Assembly (NCBI GenBank): GCA_910587405.1
Contig: CAJUKS010000004.1
Span: 78,141-142,140 of the forward strand
Direction: 5' to 3'
Source: an uncultured Alphaproteobacteria bacterium
Lineage (GTDB): Bacteria; Pseudomonadota; Alphaproteobacteria; RF32; CAG-239
DNA: 64,000 nt
Positions 3,017 through 18,132 of this stretch are shown here, piece by piece. The notes beneath the pieces were generated by a model. That model worked only from the letters and a program-made list of their open reading frames with translations, was not told the DNA's origin and did not search any database. Within the stretch, counting starts at the first letter, position 1; the number at the start of each line of letters is the position of its first letter. Both the position numbers and the translations under genes were made by a program.

Positions 3017-3892
3017 ATGAGTATATCACAGGCCATTTTCGCTGCCGGCTGTTTTTGGGGAATTCAGGCGGTTTTTGACACTGTCCCCGGCGTCGTATCA
3101 ACCACTGTCGGCTATACCGGCGGCAAAACCGAAAATCCCGGTTATCGGGAGGTATGCAACGGCGATACCGGCCATGCCGAAGCGGTAAAAATTCTTTATG
3201 ACTCCGATTTTATCAGTTACGAGCAACTGCTTGATATCTTTTTTGCCAACCATAATCCGACCACGCTCAATCGTCAGGGGCCGGACATCGGCGATCAGTA
3301 CCGATCGGCAATCTTTTACCTCACGCCCGAGCAACAACAGGCCGCGCTGAATAAAATCGCAGAATTGAACCAAAGCAAAGCCTACCCTTCTCCGATCGTC
3401 ACTCAGGTGGTTCCGGCCGCCGAATTTTATCCGGCGGAACAATATCATCAGAAATACCTTGCCAAACAGGGACGAAGTTGCTGTTCCGCTACCCAACCGC
3501 CGCTCAAACGCAGTGACGAAGAGTGGAAAAAACGCCTTACCCCGGAACAATATCGCATTTTGCGCCAAAAAGGCACAGAACCGGCTTTTTCCGGAAAATA
3601 TCTGGAAGTTAAGGAAGACGGAACTTTCAGCTGTGCCGCTTGCGGAAACCCGATTTTCCGTGCCGGCGACAAATTCGATTCCGGCAGCGGTTGGCCCAGT
3701 TTTGACCGTGCGATTCCCGGCAGTACCAAGGTTTCGCCCGACTTCAGTCACGGAATGGTACGCGCCGAAGTTACCTGCGCCCGCTGCGGTTCCCATCTCG
3801 GTCATGTTTTCAATGACGGCCCCACCGCCACCGGCGCCCGTTATTGCATCAATTCCGGCGCCATGAACTTTGCCCCGCGCGAAAACAATTGA
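3017..3892 (+). CDS. msrAB: Fused peptide-methionine sulfoxide reductase MsrA-MsrB
   Basis: The MsrA motif AAGCFWG is at the N-terminus. MsrB motifs CAACGNPIF..SGWPSF..CARCGSHLGHVF are in the C-terminal half. Confidence 0.9.
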   Translation: MSISQAIFAAGCFWGIQAVFDTVPGVVSTTVGYTGGKTENPGYREVCNGDTGHAEAVKILYDSDFISYEQLLDIFFANHNPTTLNRQGPDIGDQYRSAIFYLTPEQQQAALNKIAELNQSKAYPSPIVTQVVPAAEFYPAEQYHQKYLAKQGRSCCSATQPPLKRSDEEWKKRLTPEQYRILRQKGTEPAFSGKYLEVKEDGTFSCAACGNPIFRAGDKFDSGSGWPSFDRAIPGSTKVSPDFSHGMVRAEVTCARCGSHLGHVFNDGPTATGARYCINSGAMNFAPRENN

Positions 3893-10482: not shown

Positions 10483-12573
10483 ATGGACGCCGGAAAACTA
10501 TGGATGTTGCAGGATTTTATAGGAACCAACAAAGTTTTATTCAGAATACCGGTTTATCAGCGAAATTACGATTGGTCCGATGTCAACTGCAACAAACTGC
10601 TGGATGACACCAAACAAATTATCGATACCGGCGAAAAGCATTTTCTCGGAACTTTCGTTTATATGCCGATCGGCGGCGGCTTTTCATTAAAAGAATATAT
10701 CATCATCGACGGTCAACAACGGCTGACGACCATGATGATTTTGCTGAAAGCATTGTCTGACCTCGCTCAGAAAAACGGTGACGGCTGCTATGAGGAAATC
10801 GAGGAAATCTATTTGCACAACCGCCACTGTGAGGAACAATTCAAAATCAAACTGAAACCGGTGAAGTCCGACAACGAACAATTTTTGGCGCTGTTGAAAA
10901 ACAATACCGATGCCTTGGACGAAGAAGGGCACATCTTTATCAATTATGAAATTTGCCGTAAACGCCTCGAAAAATGGATTGCCTCCGGCATCACGCCTTC
11001 AGAAATTCATACGGCGCTGGAGAAACTGGAAATCGTCGAAATCTCCTTCACCAAAGGAGAAGACGATCCCCAGGTGATCTTCGAAAGCATTAATTCCACC
11101 GGACTCGAACTTTCCTGCGCCGACCTCATCAGAAACTTTTTGCTGATGAACGCCGACAAACAGGAGGAACTGTACGAGAAATATTGGCTGTCTATTGAAA
11201 AAGCCCTCAAATCCGGTACCGATTATACCAACCTCAATCTGTTTTTTATGCAATATGTCATTTACAAAACCAGCGCACCGGTAAACTTGGGCTCTTTGTA
11301 TCAAAAGTTTGTAAAATTGTTTAAAGACGGCGGATACACTCAGGAAAGCTGCCTGAAAGAACTGAAGTACCATGCCGACATTTTTCGCGCGTTTGTCTTT
11401 GAGTGCTCCGACTATCCGGCACCGATACGCAAAATTCTGAAAAATCTCCGACAATTGAAGCAAACCACAAGCTATCCGTTTTTAATCCATGTTTTTGACG
11501 ACTACAAACAGGGCACGATCAACGAAGATACGCTGCGCCAAACGTTGGAATTGATCCTTTCTTATTTGGTCCGTCGTTCCGTTTGCGGCATTCCTTCCAA
11601 CTCTTTGCGCGGTTTGTTTATCTATCTCTACAACCGCGTATTTAAAGTGAGCGCCAACAAAAAGAAATATTATCAGGCTATTAACAAATTTCTTTTTACC
11701 ATGACTTCCAAAGACGCCATGCCGTCGACAACCGATTTTGAAAGAGCGCTGAAAACCAACAACTTGTACGGAAACCTCTCCCTATGCAAATTTTTATTGA
11801 TGGAAATTGAAAACGGCAACGGCAAAGAAACTCTCAATACCGAAACTCTGACGATTGAACACATCATGCCGCAGGCCTTGAGCTCCGACTGGAAACATAT
11901 TTCCGACCAAGATCATGAACAGTATCTGCATACGCTGGGAAATTTGTCGGTTTCGGGTTATAATTCGGAACTGTCAAACAAAAGCTTTTCCGAAAAGAAA
12001 AAGATCATTGCCGAAAACTCCAAAGCGGTTATCCTCAACAGCGACGTTCTGAGTAAAGACAGTTGGAATATTGACAGCATTAAAAGCCGTTCCGGCCGCC
12101 TGGCACAAATCCTGATGCAAAAATATGATATCGAACGCGTTACCGACGACAGTATTGAGTTTGATGTTGTCAATACGATTACGCTTAATGATTACAGCGA
12201 CGTTACCGGCAAAAAACTGGTTACTTTCAAATTTGACCGAGAAATCTACCGGCAAAACAAATACGCTCTGATGCTGTTGGAAATGGTACGGATCTTGGAT
12301 CAACGACATCCCGGCATTTTGGAGCAGCTGGCCCGACAGAACTTTTCCCTCAACCCCAGATGCAAACGTTGCTATCTCAGCTGCAAACGCGACAATATGT
12401 GCTCGCCGTACGAAATTGAGCAAAAACCCGGAATTTTCATCGAATTGAATCTGTCATCCCAAAATGTGATGAGCTTCATCGATAAACTGCTGGAACAATA
12501 CGGAGAAGACAAATCGTCTTTTTCGATCAACGTCATCGCCGAAGAAACCGACGATACCGATACCGAGGAATAA
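10483..12573 (+). CDS. DUF262/DUF1524 nuclease (GmrSD / BrxU / SspE-like type IV restriction family)
   Basis: The N-terminal DUF262 has FRIPVYQRNYDW and IIDGQQRLTT, the middle has FESINSTGLELSCADLIRNFLL, and the DUF1524 His-Me finger has TIEHIMPQ..W..LHTLGNLSVSGYNSELSNKSF. It ends 45 nt before cas1 with no terminator between them. Confidence 0.85.
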   Translation: MDAGKLWMLQDFIGTNKVLFRIPVYQRNYDWSDVNCNKLLDDTKQIIDTGEKHFLGTFVYMPIGGGFSLKEYIIIDGQQRLTTMMILLKALSDLAQKNGDGCYEEIEEIYLHNRHCEEQFKIKLKPVKSDNEQFLALLKNNTDALDEEGHIFINYEICRKRLEKWIASGITPSEIHTALEKLEIVEISFTKGEDDPQVIFESINSTGLELSCADLIRNFLLMNADKQEELYEKYWLSIEKALKSGTDYTNLNLFFMQYVIYKTSAPVNLGSLYQKFVKLFKDGGYTQESCLKELKYHADIFRAFVFECSDYPAPIRKILKNLRQLKQTTSYPFLIHVFDDYKQGTINEDTLRQTLELILSYLVRRSVCGIPSNSLRGLFIYLYNRVFKVSANKKKYYQAINKFLFTMTSKDAMPSTTDFERALKTNNLYGNLSLCKFLLMEIENGNGKETLNTETLTIEHIMPQALSSDWKHISDQDHEQYLHTLGNLSVSGYNSELSNKSFSEKKKIIAENSKAVILNSDVLSKDSWNIDSIKSRSGRLAQILMQKYDIERVTDDSIEFDVVNTITLNDYSDVTGKKLVTFKFDREIYRQNKYALMLLEMVRILDQRHPGILEQLARQNFSLNPRCKRCYLSCKRDNMCSPYEIEQKPGIFIELNLSSQNVMSFIDKLLEQYGEDKSSFSINVIAEETDDTDTEE

Positions 12574-12618: not shown

Positions 12619-13557
12619 ATGGATCGACAAATTATCGAAATATCAAACGACGGATTTAACCTTTCGCTCTACCGGGGATTTCTGGTGGTGGAAAACAAAA
12701 ATCAAGGATTAAAGTCCGAAATCCCTTTGGATAATATCTTGGCTTTGATCCTGTCGGCAAACAATGTATCCGTCACCAAAAATATAATCAACGCCATTGC
12801 CGAACAGGGCGGAAATATCATATTCTGCGACAAAAATTACCTTCCGTCAGCTCTCACCACCCCCTATACCGGCCACTGGCTGATCTCCTCACGGGTACGC
12901 CGACAAATAGATTGCTCCAAACCGCTGCAAAAAAATTTGTGGAAAAGCATTGTTCAAAATAAAATCTTTAATCAAGCCAAGATACTGGAATATTTCTTTC
13001 CCCAACATCCGCGCTTGGCCCGGCTCAAGCAACTGGCGCGTGAGACGCTCAGTAACGACGCTAAAAACAATGAAGGTACCGCCGCGGCAATTTATTTCAA
13101 ATCTTTGTTCGGAAAAAACTTTGTTCGAGACCGCTTAGGCAACAATGCCAACATTCTGCTCAACTATACTTATATCGTTTTGCGGGCCATGGTGGCGCGT
13201 TCGATTGCCGGCAACGGATTGTTGCCCTATTTGGGGCTGAAACATTGCACCAAATCAAATCCGCTGCCGTTGGTCGACGATTTAATCGAGCCTTTCCGCG
13301 CCATCGCCGACAAAATCGTGTTTGAACAACTCAATCAACTGGTTAACATCGAACAAATCGAATTGACTCCCGAAATAAAAAGAAACTTAACCAAAATTAT
13401 TACTTTTCCGGTTTTAACCGGCAAGGGATGCGTTTCCCTCAGTGAAGGAATTAATGACTTTGTAAGCAGCTTGGTCACAAGCTTCGAACTCAAAAAAGTG
13501 GTCCTGCAATACCCAACCATCCAATTACAGGAGTTGTCAAAACGGCTTCCTGATTAA
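12619..13557 (+). CDS. cas1: CRISPR-associated endonuclease Cas1, type II-C like
   Basis: 312 aa with motifs NNEGTAAAIYFKSLFG, LNYTYIVLRAMVAR and DLIEPFR, typical of type II Cas1. The stop codon lies inside a degenerate CRISPR repeat. Confidence 0.92.
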   Translation: MDRQIIEISNDGFNLSLYRGFLVVENKNQGLKSEIPLDNILALILSANNVSVTKNIINAIAEQGGNIIFCDKNYLPSALTTPYTGHWLISSRVRRQIDCSKPLQKNLWKSIVQNKIFNQAKILEYFFPQHPRLARLKQLARETLSNDAKNNEGTAAAIYFKSLFGKNFVRDRLGNNANILLNYTYIVLRAMVARSIAGNGLLPYLGLKHCTKSNPLPLVDDLIEPFRAIADKIVFEQLNQLVNIEQIELTPEIKRNLTKIITFPVLTGKGCVSLSEGINDFVSSLVTSFELKKVVLQYPTIQLQELSKRLPD

Positions 13558-14361
13558 GCGGGGATAAAATGACACCATTTGACAGGCCTCATACCAGCTG
13601 GTTATAATTGACTGTCTGATTAATCTCTGATAAAATCCCGTTATCAAAAAAAGCCTTCTGCATCGTGTTATAATTGACCGTCTGATTAATCTCTGATAAA
13701 ATAGCACCTACAACCGGTATATCGGTTCCTTCGTTATAATTGACCGTCTGATTAATCTCTGATAAAATTAATCTCCTGTTATTTCATTAAAACGCTGAGT
13801 TATAATTGACCGTCTGATTAATCTCTGATAAAATCAGCCGCATTACGACCTTTCATCTTTTTTAGTTATAATTGACCGTCTGATTAATCTCTGATAAAAT
13901 CCTTTCTACAAGCCCTTAAAAGGCCCTACAGTTATAATTGACCGTCTGATTAATCTCTGATAAAATGCGTCCGTATTTGCGGTACGTCTGCGTGCTGTTA
14001 TAATTGACCGTCTGATTAATCTCTGATAAAATCTCGCAAAGCATATATTCGTGAGCAGACTGTTATAATTGACCGTCTGATTAATCTCTGATAAAATATA
14101 TTTGTGATGGATTACCACCACCATTTAGTTATAATTGACCGTCTGATTAATCTCTGATAAAATGCTACCGATGCCCGAACCAAGACCACTCATGTTATAA
14201 TTGACCGTCTGATTAATCTCTGATAAAATGACGACTGAAATGTCGACCGTGGCTTTTTTGTTATAATTGACCGTCTGATTAATCTCTGATAAAATAAGTT
14301 CCCTATCTAATTCTAATGTAAAATAGTTATAATTGACCGTCTGATTAATCTCTGATAAAAT
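13535..14361 (+). CRISPR. Type II-C CRISPR array with 13 repeats and 12 spacers. The crRNA sense strand is +.
   Basis: The 36-nt repeat is GTTATAATTGACCGTCTGATTAATCTCTGATAAAAT. Eleven copies are identical (13667-14361). One is a C>T variant (13601-13636). One is degenerate, with 22/36 matches (13535-13570). Spacers are 29-30 nt and all unique. Polarity is inferred from the tracrRNA anti-repeat and from the TGATAAAAT extended -10 at each repeat's 3' end. Confidence 0.97.
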
Positions 14362-14369
14362 CTCTCATT

Positions 14370-14410
14370 AAGTAATGCCTTGAAATAGAACACATTTCAA
14401 GGCATTACTT
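14370..14410. terminator. Bidirectional hairpin between the last repeat and the cas2 stop
   Basis: Perfect 17-bp inverted repeat AAGTAATGCCTTGAAAT / ATTTCAAGGCATTACTT with a 7-nt loop. Confidence 0.6.
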
Positions 14411-14436
14411 GAGAATAAAATCATTAAAAAACCCGG

Positions 14437-14757
14437 CTAAAACAACAACAATTGCCCATTTTTTTCGCGAACATCTTCCTCATTTTCTTCGCAATTCTTC
14501 CCAAGATAATTTTCAGTCATCAAATACTGCTTATCCGTAATATACAAAAAAGATATTGAGGAATTGTCCGGAATAAACTTTGACAATTTCCGCGTTACCG
14601 TTTGTCCGACGTTTAAACTCTTTACCGGTTTGATATAAACCGAGAATTGCTTCATCACAAAACCTTCGTCCAACAGCAAATTGCGGAAACGCGTTGCTTT
14701 ACGCATTTCGGTTTTGGTCCGCACCGGAATATCAAACATACAGATAATCCACATCAT
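14437..14757 (-). CDS. cas2: CRISPR-associated endoribonuclease Cas2 (type II)
   Basis: 106 aa, with N-terminus WIICMFDIPVRTKTEMRKATRFRNLLLDEGFVMKQFSVYIKP, typical of type II Cas2. Confidence 0.9.
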   Translation of the reverse strand: MMWIICMFDIPVRTKTEMRKATRFRNLLLDEGFVMKQFSVYIKPVKSLNVGQTVTRKLSKFIPDNSSISFLYITDKQYLMTENYLGKNCEENEEDVREKNGQLLLF

Positions 14758-14768
14758 CGACCAACCGG

Positions 14769-16634
14769 TTAAAGTTTCAAGTCGCTGCCGCCCTTGGCTT
14801 GCGGAATGATGTGCTCAATCTCAACACCGATAAACCTATGATCAATGCTCAGGGTCGGATTGTAAGCGTCTTTCCTGCCTTGCTCTTTGGCCAGTTTGTA
14901 TTTTAAAATATTTTTATTGTTAACATACAATTTATGCTGCTGCAGATACATCCTCGCTTCGTCATTGAGCTTTTCATTCAAACGCTGCCTTTGTTCCAGT
15001 TCAGTTTTCTTCTTTGCCGACAAACCGATATCACGGCCCAACTCAATGTTAATATCATAAGGGCGTCCGTAAATGCGGATAATATCGTTAACCACCAACC
15101 GGATTTGATTGAGAATCATGTGAACGGCCGGGTTGGCAATCTTACCCCATTTAACTTCGTCTTTATCCAAACCGGGATTGTTTTTAATCAGCAACGGCGG
15201 CAACGGCTGAGTATCATTTTGCAAAATTTCGCCGTAATACGGAAGTTGCAGATATTTTCCCTGCTTTGCCCGCACCACTTCTTCTTCCGCCAAAAACCGC
15301 GGATCGGTCTTTGCCAGCGCATCGGTGACTTCGCGATGAGACAGCACGTTTTGCTTCATTTGCTCCAAAATCAGTTTGGAGGCCGTTTGTCCAAGCATCC
15401 CTCTTCCTTTGGGAAGTTTGGTTAAAAGCGCACCGATTTCTTTTTCATCGTCAATTTTGAAAATAGGTTTGAGGTGCTCAATTAAAGCGTCCTCACTGTA
15501 CAAACGCCCGTTTTTGTCGTCCGGATTTTTGGGTTCGGCCAAAAAGTCGACAAAGGTCGCCAACTCCTTTTCCGACAAATTTTTCAGATATTCTATGTCG
15601 GCAAATTCCGGCCGCGCATATAAATAGGCTTTGATCACCCGGTCGTCCAACAAAGAAATTTTCTGTTGTGCCGAAAGACCCAAGGTCTTCTTAATCGACT
15701 GTTTTCCGGCATTTATACCTTTCAATAAAAGCTCATTGACAATTTTGTCACGCTCTTCCAGGCTCAAACGGCGTTTATCGGTATCGCTGATCACCCGGAC
15801 ATTGTTAACTTCTTCGTATATCCGCCGCATTTCTGCAAGCGGGTGCGCTTTTAACAGGCGTTCTTCTTCTCTGAAATAAATACATTTTCCGGTCGCATAA
15901 GGCATCGGCGGCCGTTCATAAAACAAAATGTCGTAAATTTCTTTTTTGAGGCCGTCCTTTTGCATCTGTTTAAAATATTGGGCCTGCCGATCCCATATTT
16001 GGTTAAACTCGTCTTTCACCAGATAACGGGGAATCGCATAATCGACGATATTTTTTTCCAAAGCGTATTTTCTTTGCCGGATAATCCGATTTTGCGGATT
16101 TTCTTTTTCTTGGAGACGCTGATAAAAAAAGGCGCCGATCGTTTTTGAACCGGTATCTTTCAAATATTGTACCATCCGGTCATATGAAGATTTCTTAATC
16201 TTAGATTTTTCGCCTTCTTCCAGAACTTCTTCCGACAACTCCTCCGCCGCCGAAACAAAACCGGCGCCGCGATGCTTGGCCATATGCAAGATCGCCCGAC
16301 CGATGTAATTTTGATTTTCCAACTTGCCGTACAGGGCATCATGACGAATTTTATAAGGAGACTTTGCTTTCAATCGGTCGGTTCCTTCCGGGGTTTCGTT
16401 CACCCACAGATTGTTTTCAAAAAGCTTTTTGGCCAACAATTCCAACCTTTTACGCGTACGAACCAAATTTTTGCGTGCTGTTTTTTTAAGGCGCCGTTCT
16501 TCTGCCCCTTCCGAAATTTCAAAAATACGTACCCCGCCGTCAATAATATCTTTAGCAAGGTTGTTCTGATCCAGTTCAATCAAGCCGCTTCCGATTGAAC
16601 TCTCTCCCAAATCAAGATTAAGACGATACTTCAT
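14769..16634 (-). CDS. cas9: Cas9 N-terminal fragment of 621 aa. It has RuvC-I, bridge helix, REC, RuvC-II and the first HNH strand only. It is truncated relative to all known Cas9 and is probably a pseudogene.
   Basis: Motifs present are LNLDLGESSIGSG (RuvC-I), RRLKKTARKNLVRTRKRLE (Arg-rich helix), INIELGRD (RuvC-II) and VEIEHIIPQAKGGSD (HNH His), followed by LKL-stop. Nothing is encoded before the cas2 ATG, 12 nt downstream, for the rest of HNH, RuvC-III or the PAM-interacting domain. Confidence 0.85.
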   Translation of the reverse strand: MKYRLNLDLGESSIGSGLIELDQNNLAKDIIDGGVRIFEISEGAEERRLKKTARKNLVRTRKRLELLAKKLFENNLWVNETPEGTDRLKAKSPYKIRHDALYGKLENQNYIGRAILHMAKHRGAGFVSAAEELSEEVLEEGEKSKIKKSSYDRMVQYLKDTGSKTIGAFFYQRLQEKENPQNRIIRQRKYALEKNIVDYAIPRYLVKDEFNQIWDRQAQYFKQMQKDGLKKEIYDILFYERPPMPYATGKCIYFREEERLLKAHPLAEMRRIYEEVNNVRVISDTDKRRLSLEERDKIVNELLLKGINAGKQSIKKTLGLSAQQKISLLDDRVIKAYLYARPEFADIEYLKNLSEKELATFVDFLAEPKNPDDKNGRLYSEDALIEHLKPIFKIDDEKEIGALLTKLPKGRGMLGQTASKLILEQMKQNVLSHREVTDALAKTDPRFLAEEEVVRAKQGKYLQLPYYGEILQNDTQPLPPLLIKNNPGLDKDEVKWGKIANPAVHMILNQIRLVVNDIIRIYGRPYDINIELGRDIGLSAKKKTELEQRQRLNEKLNDEARMYLQQHKLYVNNKNILKYKLAKEQGRKDAYNPTLSIDHRFIGVEIEHIIPQAKGGSDLKL

Positions 16635-16689: not shown

Positions 16690-16719
16690 ATTGACATTTC
16701 AACGAAAATATAATTATAC
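16690..16719 (+). promoter_or_regulatory. Sigma70-type promoter for the tracrRNA
   Basis: TTGACA (16690-16695), an 18-nt spacer, then TATACT (16714-16719). It is divergent from the cas9 start. Confidence 0.6.
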
Positions 16720-16725
16720 TGAAAG

Positions 16726-16832
16726 TGATATATGTTTTGATATATTTTCAGAGATTAATCAGACGGTCAATGCATATATAATAAGGCTGAAAATGCCGTA
16801 AAATGAGGGGGCAATCCGTTGCCCCCATTATT
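16726..16832 (+). ncRNA. tracrRNA
   Basis: The anti-repeat CAGAGATTAATCAGACGGTCAAT (16748-16770) is the exact reverse complement of repeat nt 7-29. It is followed by a nexus-like AAGGCTGAAAATGCCG and the terminal hairpin GGGGGCAA-TCCG-TTGCCCCC. The 5' and 3' ends are inferred. Confidence 0.85.
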
Positions 16833-17027
16833 GTGTCCAGAAAATAACTCATTACAAAAACAATTGGTTACAGAAACGCTTCACTCAATCGCTACGCTAC
16901 GTTCATGGGCATATGCCAACCACCTACTCCGTCTGGCTTTCGCTTGCACGGAACCTGCTTTTTCGCAAATTTAAAATCGCCATTTTTCACATAAAAAACC
17001 GTCCTTAAAAGGACGGTTTTTTATTTT

Positions 17028-17104
<77 letters not shown>

Positions 17105-18055: not shown

Positions 18056-18132
18056 CGGATTGTAGTTCAGCCTGGTAGAACGCTGCGTTCGGGACGCAGA
18101 GGTCGCTGGTTCGAGTCCAGTCAATCCGACCA
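18056..18132 (+). tRNA. tRNA-Pro (CGG)
   Basis: Cloverleaf CGGATTG..CTGCG-TTCGGGA-CGCAG..GCTGG-TTCGAGT-CCAGT-CAATCCG-A-CCA, with a terminator hairpin downstream at about 18137-18165. Confidence 0.92.

What the first reader, a model, noticed from the sequence alone, without database searches (positions are those of the whole stretch)
14769..16634. The Cas9 ORF stops 15 residues into the HNH domain and abuts cas2, yet the RNA half of the system looks intact
The 621-aa ORF has RuvC-I (LDLGESSIGSG), the Arg-rich bridge helix, a REC-sized middle, RuvC-II (INIELGRD) and the first HNH strand (VEIEHIIPQAKGGSD). It then reads LKL-stop at 14769, and the cas2 ATG follows 12 nt later at 14757. The rest of HNH, RuvC-III, the WED/PAM-interacting domains and the cas1 gene that normally separates cas9 from cas2 in type II-C operons are all missing. 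In contrast, 11 repeats are identical, and the tracrRNA keeps a perfect 23-nt anti-repeat, its own promoter and its terminator. Three readings fit this. It could be a very recent internal deletion leaving a dead effector. It could be an assembly artefact. Or it could be a retained REC-lobe-only Cas9 remnant that still binds the crRNA:tracrRNA duplex. No functional Cas9 of this architecture is known to me.
Basis: partly seen in the sequence, partly recalled or inferred. Interest (0 to 1): 0.78.

Follow-up and report, generated by a model that had tools for sequence, protein, structure and literature searches.

The report
Freshly deleted, dead cas9 gene
This is an ordinary, very recent loss-of-function allele: a 1,613-bp deletion between two 9-bp direct repeats removed the back half of cas9 in one mouse-gut bacterial strain, and a near-identical sister contig still has the full gene.

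Summary
The 621-aa ORF at 14769-16634(-) is real. It is the N-terminal 618 residues of a type II-C Cas9 plus three frameshifted codons (LKL-stop), and cas2 starts 11 nt after the stop.

The claim that cas1 is missing is wrong. A full-length type II cas1 lies at 12619-13557(+), on the far side of the array. In nine related loci the order is likewise cas9, cas2, array, then cas1 pointing back toward the array.

Contig L023 matches the window with 1 mismatch in 6,982 nt on one flank and 0 in 3,361 nt on the other. It carries a 1,156-aa cas9 containing two copies of GGCAGCGAC 1,613 nt apart. Deleting one copy plus the 1,604 nt between them in silico reproduces the window exactly over 3,670 nt.

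The deletion is out of frame. It removes the rest of the HNH motif, RuvC-III, and everything C-terminal to it (by position the WED and PAM-interacting regions, not mapped here).

The identical truncated protein is indexed in 171 blocks of public assemblies. Five independent NCBI assemblies match the window 100%, so an assembly artefact is very unlikely.

All truncated-allele contigs that span the array share one 11-spacer array. No sequence change has accumulated since the deletion, so nothing supports a retained function. Verdict: a recent, polymorphic cas9 pseudogene of low novelty.

The parts
14769..16634 (-). cas9 remnant. It encodes residues 1-618 of a 1,156-aa type II-C Cas9 (RuvC-I, bridge helix, REC lobe, RuvC-II, and the first part of HNH through His608), followed by frameshifted Leu-Lys-Leu and a TAA stop.
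   Evidence: TIGR01865 positions 1-604 of 1070. (tblastn with the full-length relative covers residues 1-618 only). (in the parent allele, HNH_4 spans 604-640 and RuvC_III spans 687-827).
14781..14789 (-). Deletion junction: the single surviving copy of the 9-nt direct repeat GGCAGCGAC. The parent allele has two copies 1,613 nt apart.
   Evidence: both flanks of the L010 gene align to these 9 nt. (L023 has exact copies at cas9 nt 1845 and 3458, and the in-silico deletion equals window 18034-14365).
14437..14757 (-). cas2 (106 aa), intact and in its native position directly after cas9.
   Evidence: PF09827, TIGR01573. (0 mismatches to L023 across leader plus cas2). (cas9-cas2 adjacency in relatives).
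14372..14408 (.). Conserved hairpin in the leader between cas2 and the first repeat (GTAATGCCTTGAAAT...ATTTCAAGGCATTAC).
   Evidence: The stem is kept in ten related loci, with changes on both sides of the stem (GCC/GGC, GGCC/GGCC, CACC/GGTG, CCGA/TCGG).
13535..14361 (+). CRISPR array: 12 repeats of 36 nt (13601-14361), 11 spacers, and a degenerate trailer repeat (13535-13570). The crRNA sense is the + strand. Each repeat carries TTGACC-17-TGATAAAAT. New spacers enter at the cas2-proximal end.
   Evidence: Leader polarity follows from L023 sharing only the cas1-proximal spacer.
12619..13557 (+). cas1 (312 aa, type II), pointing toward cas9-cas2 from the far side of the array. Its stop codon lies inside the degenerate trailer repeat.
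   Evidence: TIGR03639, E=7e-73. (same position and orientation in L001, L007, L008, L010, L011, L014, L017, L018).
16691..16835 (+). tracrRNA candidate with its promoter: -35/-10 at 16691-16720, anti-repeat at 16742-16771, terminator hairpin at 16807-16826. It is divergent from cas9.
   Evidence: fold z = -3.25. It is 100% identical to the same region of the full-length-cas9 contig L023.
10483..12573 (+). GmrSD-family restriction endonuclease gene, 46 nt upstream of cas1 on the same strand. It is a neighbour and not part of the deletion.
   Evidence: PF03235 and PF07510. The same neighbour occurs in L010 and L019-L026.

Best explanation
The window carries a loss-of-function allele of a type II-C cas9 gene.

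Origin. In the parent allele, which survives in near-isogenic contig L023, the 3,471-nt gene contains the 9-nt sequence GGCAGCGAC twice. One copy is in the HNH motif (codons Gly-Gly-Ser-Asp 615-618). The other sits 4 nt before the stop codon. Illegitimate recombination or replication slippage between these repeats is inferred as the mechanism. It removed one repeat copy plus the 1,604 nt between them, 1,613 nt in all.

Consequence for the protein. Because 1,613 is not a multiple of 3, the reading frame shifts. It reads through the old TGA as Leu-Lys-Leu and stops at a TAA 11 nt before cas2. The product keeps RuvC-I, the bridge helix, the REC lobe, RuvC-II and HNH up to His608. It lacks HNH Asn622 and Asn631, all of RuvC-III, and everything C-terminal to it. 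By position that C-terminal part holds the WED and PAM-interacting regions, which were not mapped here. Such a protein cannot cut DNA or read a PAM, so interference is abolished.

Adaptation. Type II adaptation uses Cas9 to select PAM-flanked spacers, so new spacer uptake should also stop. That is inferred, but it fits the identical arrays seen in all truncated-allele contigs.

What is untouched. cas2, the leader, the array, cas1 and the tracrRNA gene look intact because the deletion is very young, not because they are being maintained.
For: - Remnant identity and extent.
- Near-isogenic parent: L023 differs from the window by 1 mismatch in 6,982 nt (left flank), 0 in 428 nt (leader plus cas2) and 0 in 3,361 nt (cas9 5' part through pgpA). 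It encodes a 1,156-aa Cas9 with HNH_4 and RuvC_III domains.
- Repeats and reconstruction: the two exact GGCAGCGAC copies are 1,613 nt apart. In-silico deletion reproduces window 18034-14365 exactly.
- More distant relatives: the breakpoints can also be read against L010 (about 95% protein identity, intact gene) and L013. L010, L018, L011, L014, L015 and L017 have uninterrupted full-length genes.
- Not an artefact: the exact 621-aa protein is indexed in 171 blocks. Five NCBI assemblies are 100% identical to the window over up to 21.9 kb.
- Native gene order: cas9-cas2-array-cas1 occurs in nine related loci, so only cas9 sequence was lost.
- Arrays: every truncated-allele contig that spans the array has spacers 1-11. 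L023 shares only spacer 1 and has seven others.
- Precedent: strain-level decay of a type II-C cas9 is documented in Endomicrobium genomovars (PMC5174739).
Against: No reads were available, so the junction rests on assemblies only.

The identical arrays could simply reflect how young and clonal the lineage is. All contigs are 100% identical, so this is weak evidence that adaptation has stopped.

The truncated allele is the commoner one. Of the 24 longest contigs with the identical Cas1, 15 carry it and 7 carry the full-length gene. A purely neutral lesion does not predict that, though founder effects in mouse colonies would explain it.

Loss of activity is inferred from domain content and has not been measured.
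Confidence: 0.93

Rival explanations
1. The loss was selected rather than neutral. Under this reading, inactivating Cas9 gave the strain an advantage. The advantage could be escape from self-targeting or from the cost of the system, or tolerance of a useful mobile element. That would explain why the deletion allele spread. This rival concerns the cause of the spread and does not dispute what the lesion is.
For: - The truncated allele outnumbers the parent 15 to 7 among the longest contigs with identical Cas1.
- Seven of 14 distinct complete loci in this clade carry independent cas9 lesions: one nonsense, two frameshifts and four deletions.
- The system was acquiring spacers right up to the deletion. 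The two lineages have ten and seven private spacers despite about 1 SNP in 10 kb.
Against: - No spacer matches the 64-kb window outside the array, allowing up to 7 mismatches.
- The newest spacer matches foreign DNA of 24-26% GC, not the 48% GC host.
- cas9 makes up about three quarters of the cas coding sequence. Seven of seven lesions falling in cas9 is therefore not significant (p about 0.12, my own calculation).
- Contig counts are not a population sample.
Confidence: 0.25
2. The remnant is a retained, functional protein. It would contain the REC lobe plus a partial RuvC domain and still bind the crRNA:tracrRNA duplex. Possible roles would be regulation, RNA stabilisation, or dominant-negative action.
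For: - The ORF is open for 621 codons, with a plausible promoter and ribosome-binding site.
- The RNA genes are intact.
- The allele is common.
- From memory, engineered Cas9 alpha-helical lobes are stable polypeptides (Wright et al. 2015).
Against: - The remnant is nucleotide-identical to the parent allele, so the open frame and intact RNAs are explained by zero elapsed time and need no selection.
- The deletion is out of frame and ends in three junk codons.
- RuvC-III is missing, so the RuvC fold cannot be completed.
- In the AlphaFold model the RuvC-I (1-57) and RuvC-II (499-539) segments have pLDDT below 50. Overall pLDDT is 57.8 and pTM 0.28, from a shallow alignment.
- The region C-terminal to RuvC-III is gone. 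From knowledge of Cas9 structures, it holds the WED domain that grips the repeat:anti-repeat duplex in type II-C Cas9.
- No family of about 620-aa proteins ending at this point exists among relatives. The other short hits examined run off contig ends or carry different lesions.
Confidence: 0.04
3. The truncation is an assembly or binning artefact, and the real genome has a full-length cas9.
For: The window comes from metagenome-type data and no reads could be inspected. Both alleles exist in public assemblies of the same strain. A mixed sample could in principle be mis-joined.
Against: - The identical junction occurs in at least five separate NCBI assemblies, and the protein is indexed in 171 blocks.
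- The repeat is only 9 nt, shorter than typical assembler k-mers.
- The junction has the classic signature of a biological deletion between direct repeats, with one copy retained.
Confidence: 0.02

Closest known systems
Type II-C CRISPR-Cas9 loci (Neisseria meningitidis, Geobacillus and Campylobacter type)
   Same: - The parent Cas9 (1,156 aa) finds type II-C Cas9 structures as its best solved relatives (9ar4, 6jdq, 8hnt).
- Cas1 matches the NMENI type II model.
- There is no csn2 or cas4.
- The repeats are 36 nt and each carries its own promoter. From memory, this is as described for N. meningitidis.
- A tracrRNA gene lies next to cas9.
   Different: cas1 is not between cas9 and cas2. It sits beyond the array on the opposite strand. 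In the window allele the effector gene has also lost its 3' 1,613 nt.
Strain-level decay of type II-C cas9 in 'Ca. Endomicrobium trichonymphae' genomovars (PMC5174739)
   Same: cas9 is disrupted in one strain and intact in a close relative, read by the authors as relaxed selection on defence.
   Different: In that case cas9 was split and the adjacent array was lost, in a genome undergoing reduction. Here a single clean deletion between 9-bp repeats leaves the array, cas1, cas2 and tracrRNA untouched, and the parent allele is essentially isogenic.
Engineered split-Cas9 alpha-helical lobe (Wright et al. 2015, recalled from memory, not checked here)
   Same: It is an N-terminal, REC-containing Cas9 fragment without the main nuclease lobe.
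   Different: The engineered lobe works only together with the nuclease lobe supplied in trans. No second half is encoded in this window. The natural fragment also drags along incomplete RuvC and HNH pieces.
Compact effectors Cas9d (type II-D) and IscB
   Same: Similar length, roughly 600-850 aa.
   Different: Those proteins have complete RuvC and HNH domains. The remnant scores 52.9 bits against the Cas9d model, whose cut-off is 375. Its small size comes from a frameshifting deletion, not from a compact design.

Membership tests
Type II-C CRISPR-Cas locus | Cas9 signature gene with RuvC-I, RuvC-II, RuvC-III and HNH | tested here: not met
   The window allele covers only TIGR01865 positions 1-604 of 1070 and has no HNH or RuvC_III Pfam hit. 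The near-isogenic parent L023 does meet the feature: HNH_4 at 604-640 and RuvC_III at 687-827.
Type II-C CRISPR-Cas locus | cas1 and cas2 present; no csn2 (II-A) or cas4 (II-B) | tested here: met
   cas1 matches TIGR03639 and cas2 matches TIGR01573. The only other sizeable ORF in the locus is a GmrSD gene. No dedicated csn2 or cas4 profile scan of small ORFs was run.
Type II-C CRISPR-Cas locus | tracrRNA with an anti-repeat complementary to the CRISPR repeat | tested here: met
   A 30-nt anti-repeat, 93% complementary, lies at 16742-16771. It is followed by hairpins and preceded by an 11-of-12 promoter match. Expression was not tested.
Type II-C CRISPR-Cas locus | Canonical operon order cas9-cas1-cas2-array | tested here: not met
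   The order is cas9-cas2-array, then cas1 on the opposite strand pointing back at the array. This holds in the window and in nine relatives. Gene order is typical of the subtype rather than strictly defining.
Catalytically competent Cas9 effector | Complete HNH metal-finger motif (His plus two Asn) and the RuvC-III His/Asp motif | tested here: not met
   The ORF ends at residue 618 of the parent. His608 is kept. Asn622, Asn631 and the DHRHHALDA motif of RuvC-III are deleted.
Catalytically competent Cas9 effector | WED and PAM-interacting domains | tested here: not met
   Residues 619-1156 of the parent are absent from the whole window. These two domains are assigned to that stretch by position only and were not mapped here.
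Cas9d (type II-D) | Score above the NCBIfam NF049971 cut-off | tested here: not met
   52.9 bits against a cut-off of 375.
Gene inactivated by deletion between short direct repeats | An intact parent allele with two repeat copies flanking exactly the missing segment, one copy left at the junction | tested here: met
   L023 has GGCAGCGAC at cas9 nt 1845 and 3458. The window has one copy at 14781-14789. The in-silico deletion equals the window over 3,670 nt.

The most novel reading that the evidence does not exclude
Loss of the Cas9 nuclease half may be recurrent and favoured in this clade of gut Alphaproteobacteria.

Half of the complete related loci carry independent cas9 lesions. In one sister species, three different in-frame deletions each remove one nuclease module: the RuvC-II region, HNH, or RuvC-III. 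Some of these derivatives might be kept as nuclease-dead RNA-guided binders, and conceivably even the 621-aa remnant. Alternatively, they might be kept because cas1, cas2 and the array still serve another purpose.
Probability: 0.07. Interest if true: 0.55.

Novelty: already known. Interest (0 to 1): 0.15.

Why it matters
The finding itself matters little. It is a young pseudogene, and its 'intact RNA half' simply reflects that youth.

Its modest value is as a clean natural example. Public data hold both the parent allele and the deleted allele of one strain, with exact breakpoints, and the arrays diverged before the loss. That pairing could be used to ask how quickly a CRISPR locus decays after the effector dies, and whether effector loss is selected in gut bacteria.

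The check also corrects a misreading of the locus. In this lineage, cas1 natively sits beyond the array on the opposite strand.

Tried and rejected
- **Split gene.** tblastn with the full-length relative found no C-terminal Cas9 half anywhere in the window.
- **Inversion or translocation of cas1.** I considered this first, on seeing cas1 on the other strand. I dropped it once nine relatives showed the same order.
- **Junction in JGI metagenomes.** An exact search with a 28-mer gave 0 hits. This is uninformative, because the organism may not be in that collection.
- **Protein homology search.** It did not return the window's own protein or the 92-100% relatives; the top hit was 74%. The close relatives came from the genome scan and the exact-protein look-ups.
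- **Self-targeting.** No spacer matches the window outside the array with up to 7 mismatches. The rest of the genome could not be searched.
- **Spacers 9 and 10 against IMG/VR.** No exact hits.
- **AlphaFold model of the remnant.** Confidence was low (pLDDT 57.8, pTM 0.28), so I ran no fold search and use the model only as weak support.
- **Literature on the gene order.** A search for a description of the cas9-cas2-array-cas1 order found nothing specific.
- **Cas9d membership.** Rejected on score.

Full report
**1. What is in the window**

The ORF at 14769-16634 on the minus strand encodes 621 aa. It matches the Cas9 equivalog model TIGR01865 at E=3e-88, but only over model positions 1-604 of 1070. 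Its only Pfam hit is the Cas9 alpha-helical lobe. It ends ...IEHIIPQAKGGSD-LKL-stop, with the TAA at 14771-14769. The cas2 ATG is at 14757.

- cas2 (106 aa; PF09827, TIGR01573) is intact.
- Beyond it lie a 75-nt leader with a hairpin and a 12-repeat, 11-spacer array at 13601-14361.
- A degenerate trailer repeat follows at 13535-13570.
- The tracrRNA candidate is on the plus strand upstream of cas9. Its promoter TTGACA-18-TATACT is at 16691-16720, its anti-repeat at 16742-16771, and its terminator hairpin at 16807-16826.

**2.

cas1 is not missing. A 312-aa protein at 12619-13557 on the plus strand matches the type II Cas1 model TIGR03639 over its full length at E=7e-73. It points toward cas9-cas2 from the other side of the array. 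Its stop codon lies inside the degenerate trailer repeat.

This is the native layout of the lineage. The order cas9, cas2, array, then cas1 on the opposite strand is seen in L001, L007, L008, L010, L011, L014, L017, L018 and L023. Their Cas9 proteins are 60-100% identical to the window's. In those loci cas2 starts about 20 nt after the cas9 stop. The cas9-cas2 abutment is therefore normal, and only cas9 sequence has been lost.

**3. The deletion, base by base**

A genome scan found close relatives with uninterrupted genes: L010 (a mouse-gut MAG, about 95% protein identity, 1,156 aa) and L018 (1,161 aa).

Looking up the window's exact Cas1 protein returned L023 (ENA ERZ28568638). L023 differs from the window as follows:

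| Region | Mismatches |
|---|---|
| Left flank | 1 in 6,982 nt |
| Leader plus cas2 | 0 in 428 nt |
| cas9 5' part through pgpA | 0 in 3,361 nt |

L023 nevertheless encodes a 1,156-aa Cas9 with HNH_4 (604-640) and RuvC_III (687-827) domains.

In L023 the sequence GGCAGCGAC occurs at cas9 nt 1845, in codons Gly-Gly-Ser-Asp 615-618 of the HNH motif. It occurs again at nt 3458, 4 nt before the TGA stop. The two copies are 1,613 nt apart. The window has one copy, at 14781-14789. Removing one copy plus the 1,604 nt between them from L023 in silico gives a sequence identical to window 18034-14365, which is 3,670 nt.

1,613 is 537 codons plus 2 nt, so the frame shifts. The old ...GCG ACT TGA is read as GAC TTG AAA CTT TAA.

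Lost:
- HNH Asn622 and Asn631
- the whole of RuvC-III, including DHRHHALDA
- everything C-terminal to it, which by position holds the WED and PAM-interacting regions (not mapped here)

Kept:
- Asp8 (RuvC-I)
- the bridge helix and REC lobe
- Glu531 (RuvC-II)
- His608

The mechanism, slippage or illegitimate recombination between short direct repeats, is inferred from this signature. The gene contains 77 repeated 9-mers, so opportunities for it are plentiful.

**4. Not an artefact, and polymorphic**

The exact 621-aa protein is indexed in 171 blocks of the public collection. Contigs from five NCBI assemblies are 100% identical to the window over 7.3-21.9 kb:
- GCA_948571045.1
- GCA_948633485.1
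- GCA_948932935.1
- GCA_948650115.1
- GCA_948829215.1

Of the 24 longest contigs encoding the identical Cas1:
- 15 have the 621-aa gene next door;
- 7 have the 1,156-aa gene;
- 2 end in the array.

Sample and contig names (XIAO15, MGBC) point to mouse gut, and the records are titled uncultured Alphaproteobacteria. I therefore read this as one clonal strain with two segregating alleles.

**5. Consequences**

Interference must be lost, because there is no complete nuclease domain and no PAM reader. That is an inference from domain content.

Type II spacer acquisition uses Cas9 to pick PAM-flanked DNA. This is established knowledge, restated in the abstract of PMC12477760. Adaptation should therefore stop too.

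The arrays are consistent with this:
- All four truncated-allele contigs that span the array have the window's 11 spacers. One of these, L024, has a scaffold gap of Ns in the middle.
- L023 shares only the cas1-proximal spacer and has seven others.

That pattern also places the leader at the cas2 end. It shows the system was acquiring spacers rapidly until shortly before the deletion, because ten and seven private spacers accumulated against about 1 SNP in 10 kb. Since the truncated lineage is 100% identical everywhere, however, the frozen array is only weak evidence that adaptation has stopped.

The newest spacer (11) has exact protospacers in three IMG/VR contigs of 24-26% GC. That is foreign DNA, not the 48% GC host. 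No spacer matches the window itself.

**6. The 'functional remnant' idea**

The open 621-codon frame and the intact RNA genes need no selective explanation, because the remnant and its surroundings are nucleotide-identical to the parent allele. Other points against a retained function:
- The deletion is out of frame.
- RuvC cannot fold without its third segment.
- The AlphaFold model gives pLDDT below 50 for the RuvC-I and RuvC-II pieces, though the model is poor overall (pLDDT 57.8).
- No family of proteins ending at this point exists among relatives.

I put this reading at about 4%.

**7. Comparison with known systems**

The parent locus is type II-C by Cas9 similarity to 9ar4 and 6jdq, by Cas1 type, and by absence of csn2 and cas4. 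Its repeat-internal promoters resemble those I recall for Neisseria. It departs from the textbook operon only in the position of cas1.

Strain-level cas9 decay has precedent in Endomicrobium (PMC5174739). The remnant is not a Cas9d: it scores 52.9 bits against a cut-off of 375.

**8. Verdict**

This is a real feature with an ordinary explanation: a very recent, polymorphic cas9 pseudogene. Novelty is low and interest is 0.15.

The side observations are more interesting than the finding itself, but they are only partly explored. They are the non-canonical conserved gene order, the recurrent independent cas9 lesions in relatives, and the availability of isogenic parent and deleted alleles.

Noticed in passing
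window 12619-16634; also L001, L007, L008, L010, L011, L014, L017, L018, L023: The native gene order in this clade is cas9, cas2, leader, array, then cas1 on the opposite strand. The cas1 3' end abuts or overlaps a truncated or degenerate trailer repeat; in the window the TAA stop is the repeat's own GATTAA. This is not the textbook type II-C order, and I found no description of it in one literature search.
   Followed up: partly
L001-L003, L006, L007, L008, L009, L013 (cas9 genes): Independent cas9 lesions occur in relatives:
- L007 has a nonsense codon at position 136.
- L013 has a 1-nt insertion near codon 150.
- L001-L003 have a frameshift in a G7 run near codon 915, seen in three samples.
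- L006 has an in-frame deletion removing HNH (8-nt microhomology ATAAACAA).
- L008 has an in-frame deletion of about residues 445-601.
- L009 has an in-frame deletion of about residues 694-957.

L006, L008 and L009 are one species (96-98% nt identity) from three different runs. Counting the window, 7 of 14 complete loci are damaged.
   Followed up: partly
window 13601-14361 (each repeat), e.g. 14333-14361: Every 36-nt repeat contains a full sigma-70-type promoter on the + strand: TTGACC, a 17-nt spacer, then TAAAAT preceded by TG. crRNAs are therefore probably transcribed from within each repeat, toward cas2.
   Followed up: partly
window 14372-14408; equivalent positions in L001, L006, L007, L008, L010, L011, L014, L017, L018: A hairpin between the cas2 stop and the first repeat (core CCTTGAAAT...ATTTCAAGG) is conserved across the clade, with changes on both sides of the outer stem. 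It could be a bidirectional terminator or a leader element.
   Followed up: partly
window 14296-14325 (spacer 11); L027 197-226, L028, L029: The newest spacer has exact protospacers in three IMG/VR contigs of 22.6, 203 and 282 kb, whose fetched stretches are only 24-26% GC. The 3' flank on the crRNA-sense strand is TAAAACAT, a single data point for the PAM.
   Followed up: partly
window 10483-12573; L007 14781-15725; L010 884-9795: The locus sits in a variable defence neighbourhood.
- In the window and L010, a GmrSD restriction gene lies 46 nt upstream of cas1.
- In L007, a WYL-domain gene overlaps the cas1 start instead.
- L010 has an extra segment of about 8.9 kb between the tRNA and the tracrRNA gene. 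It includes a 908-aa ResIII-type helicase/restriction subunit.
   Followed up: partly
L025 7283-7301 (contig end): In GCA_948829215.1 the array reads spacers 1-4, then a repeat, then the start of spacer 7. Spacers 5 and 6 are skipped just before the contig ends. This is either a spacer-loss variant or an assembly ambiguity within the repeats.
   Followed up: no
window 17031-17104(-) and 18056-18129(+): Two tRNA genes flank pgpA next to the CRISPR locus. The extra island in L010 is inserted between the first tRNA and the tracrRNA gene. This suggests a tRNA-adjacent integration hot spot.
   Followed up: no
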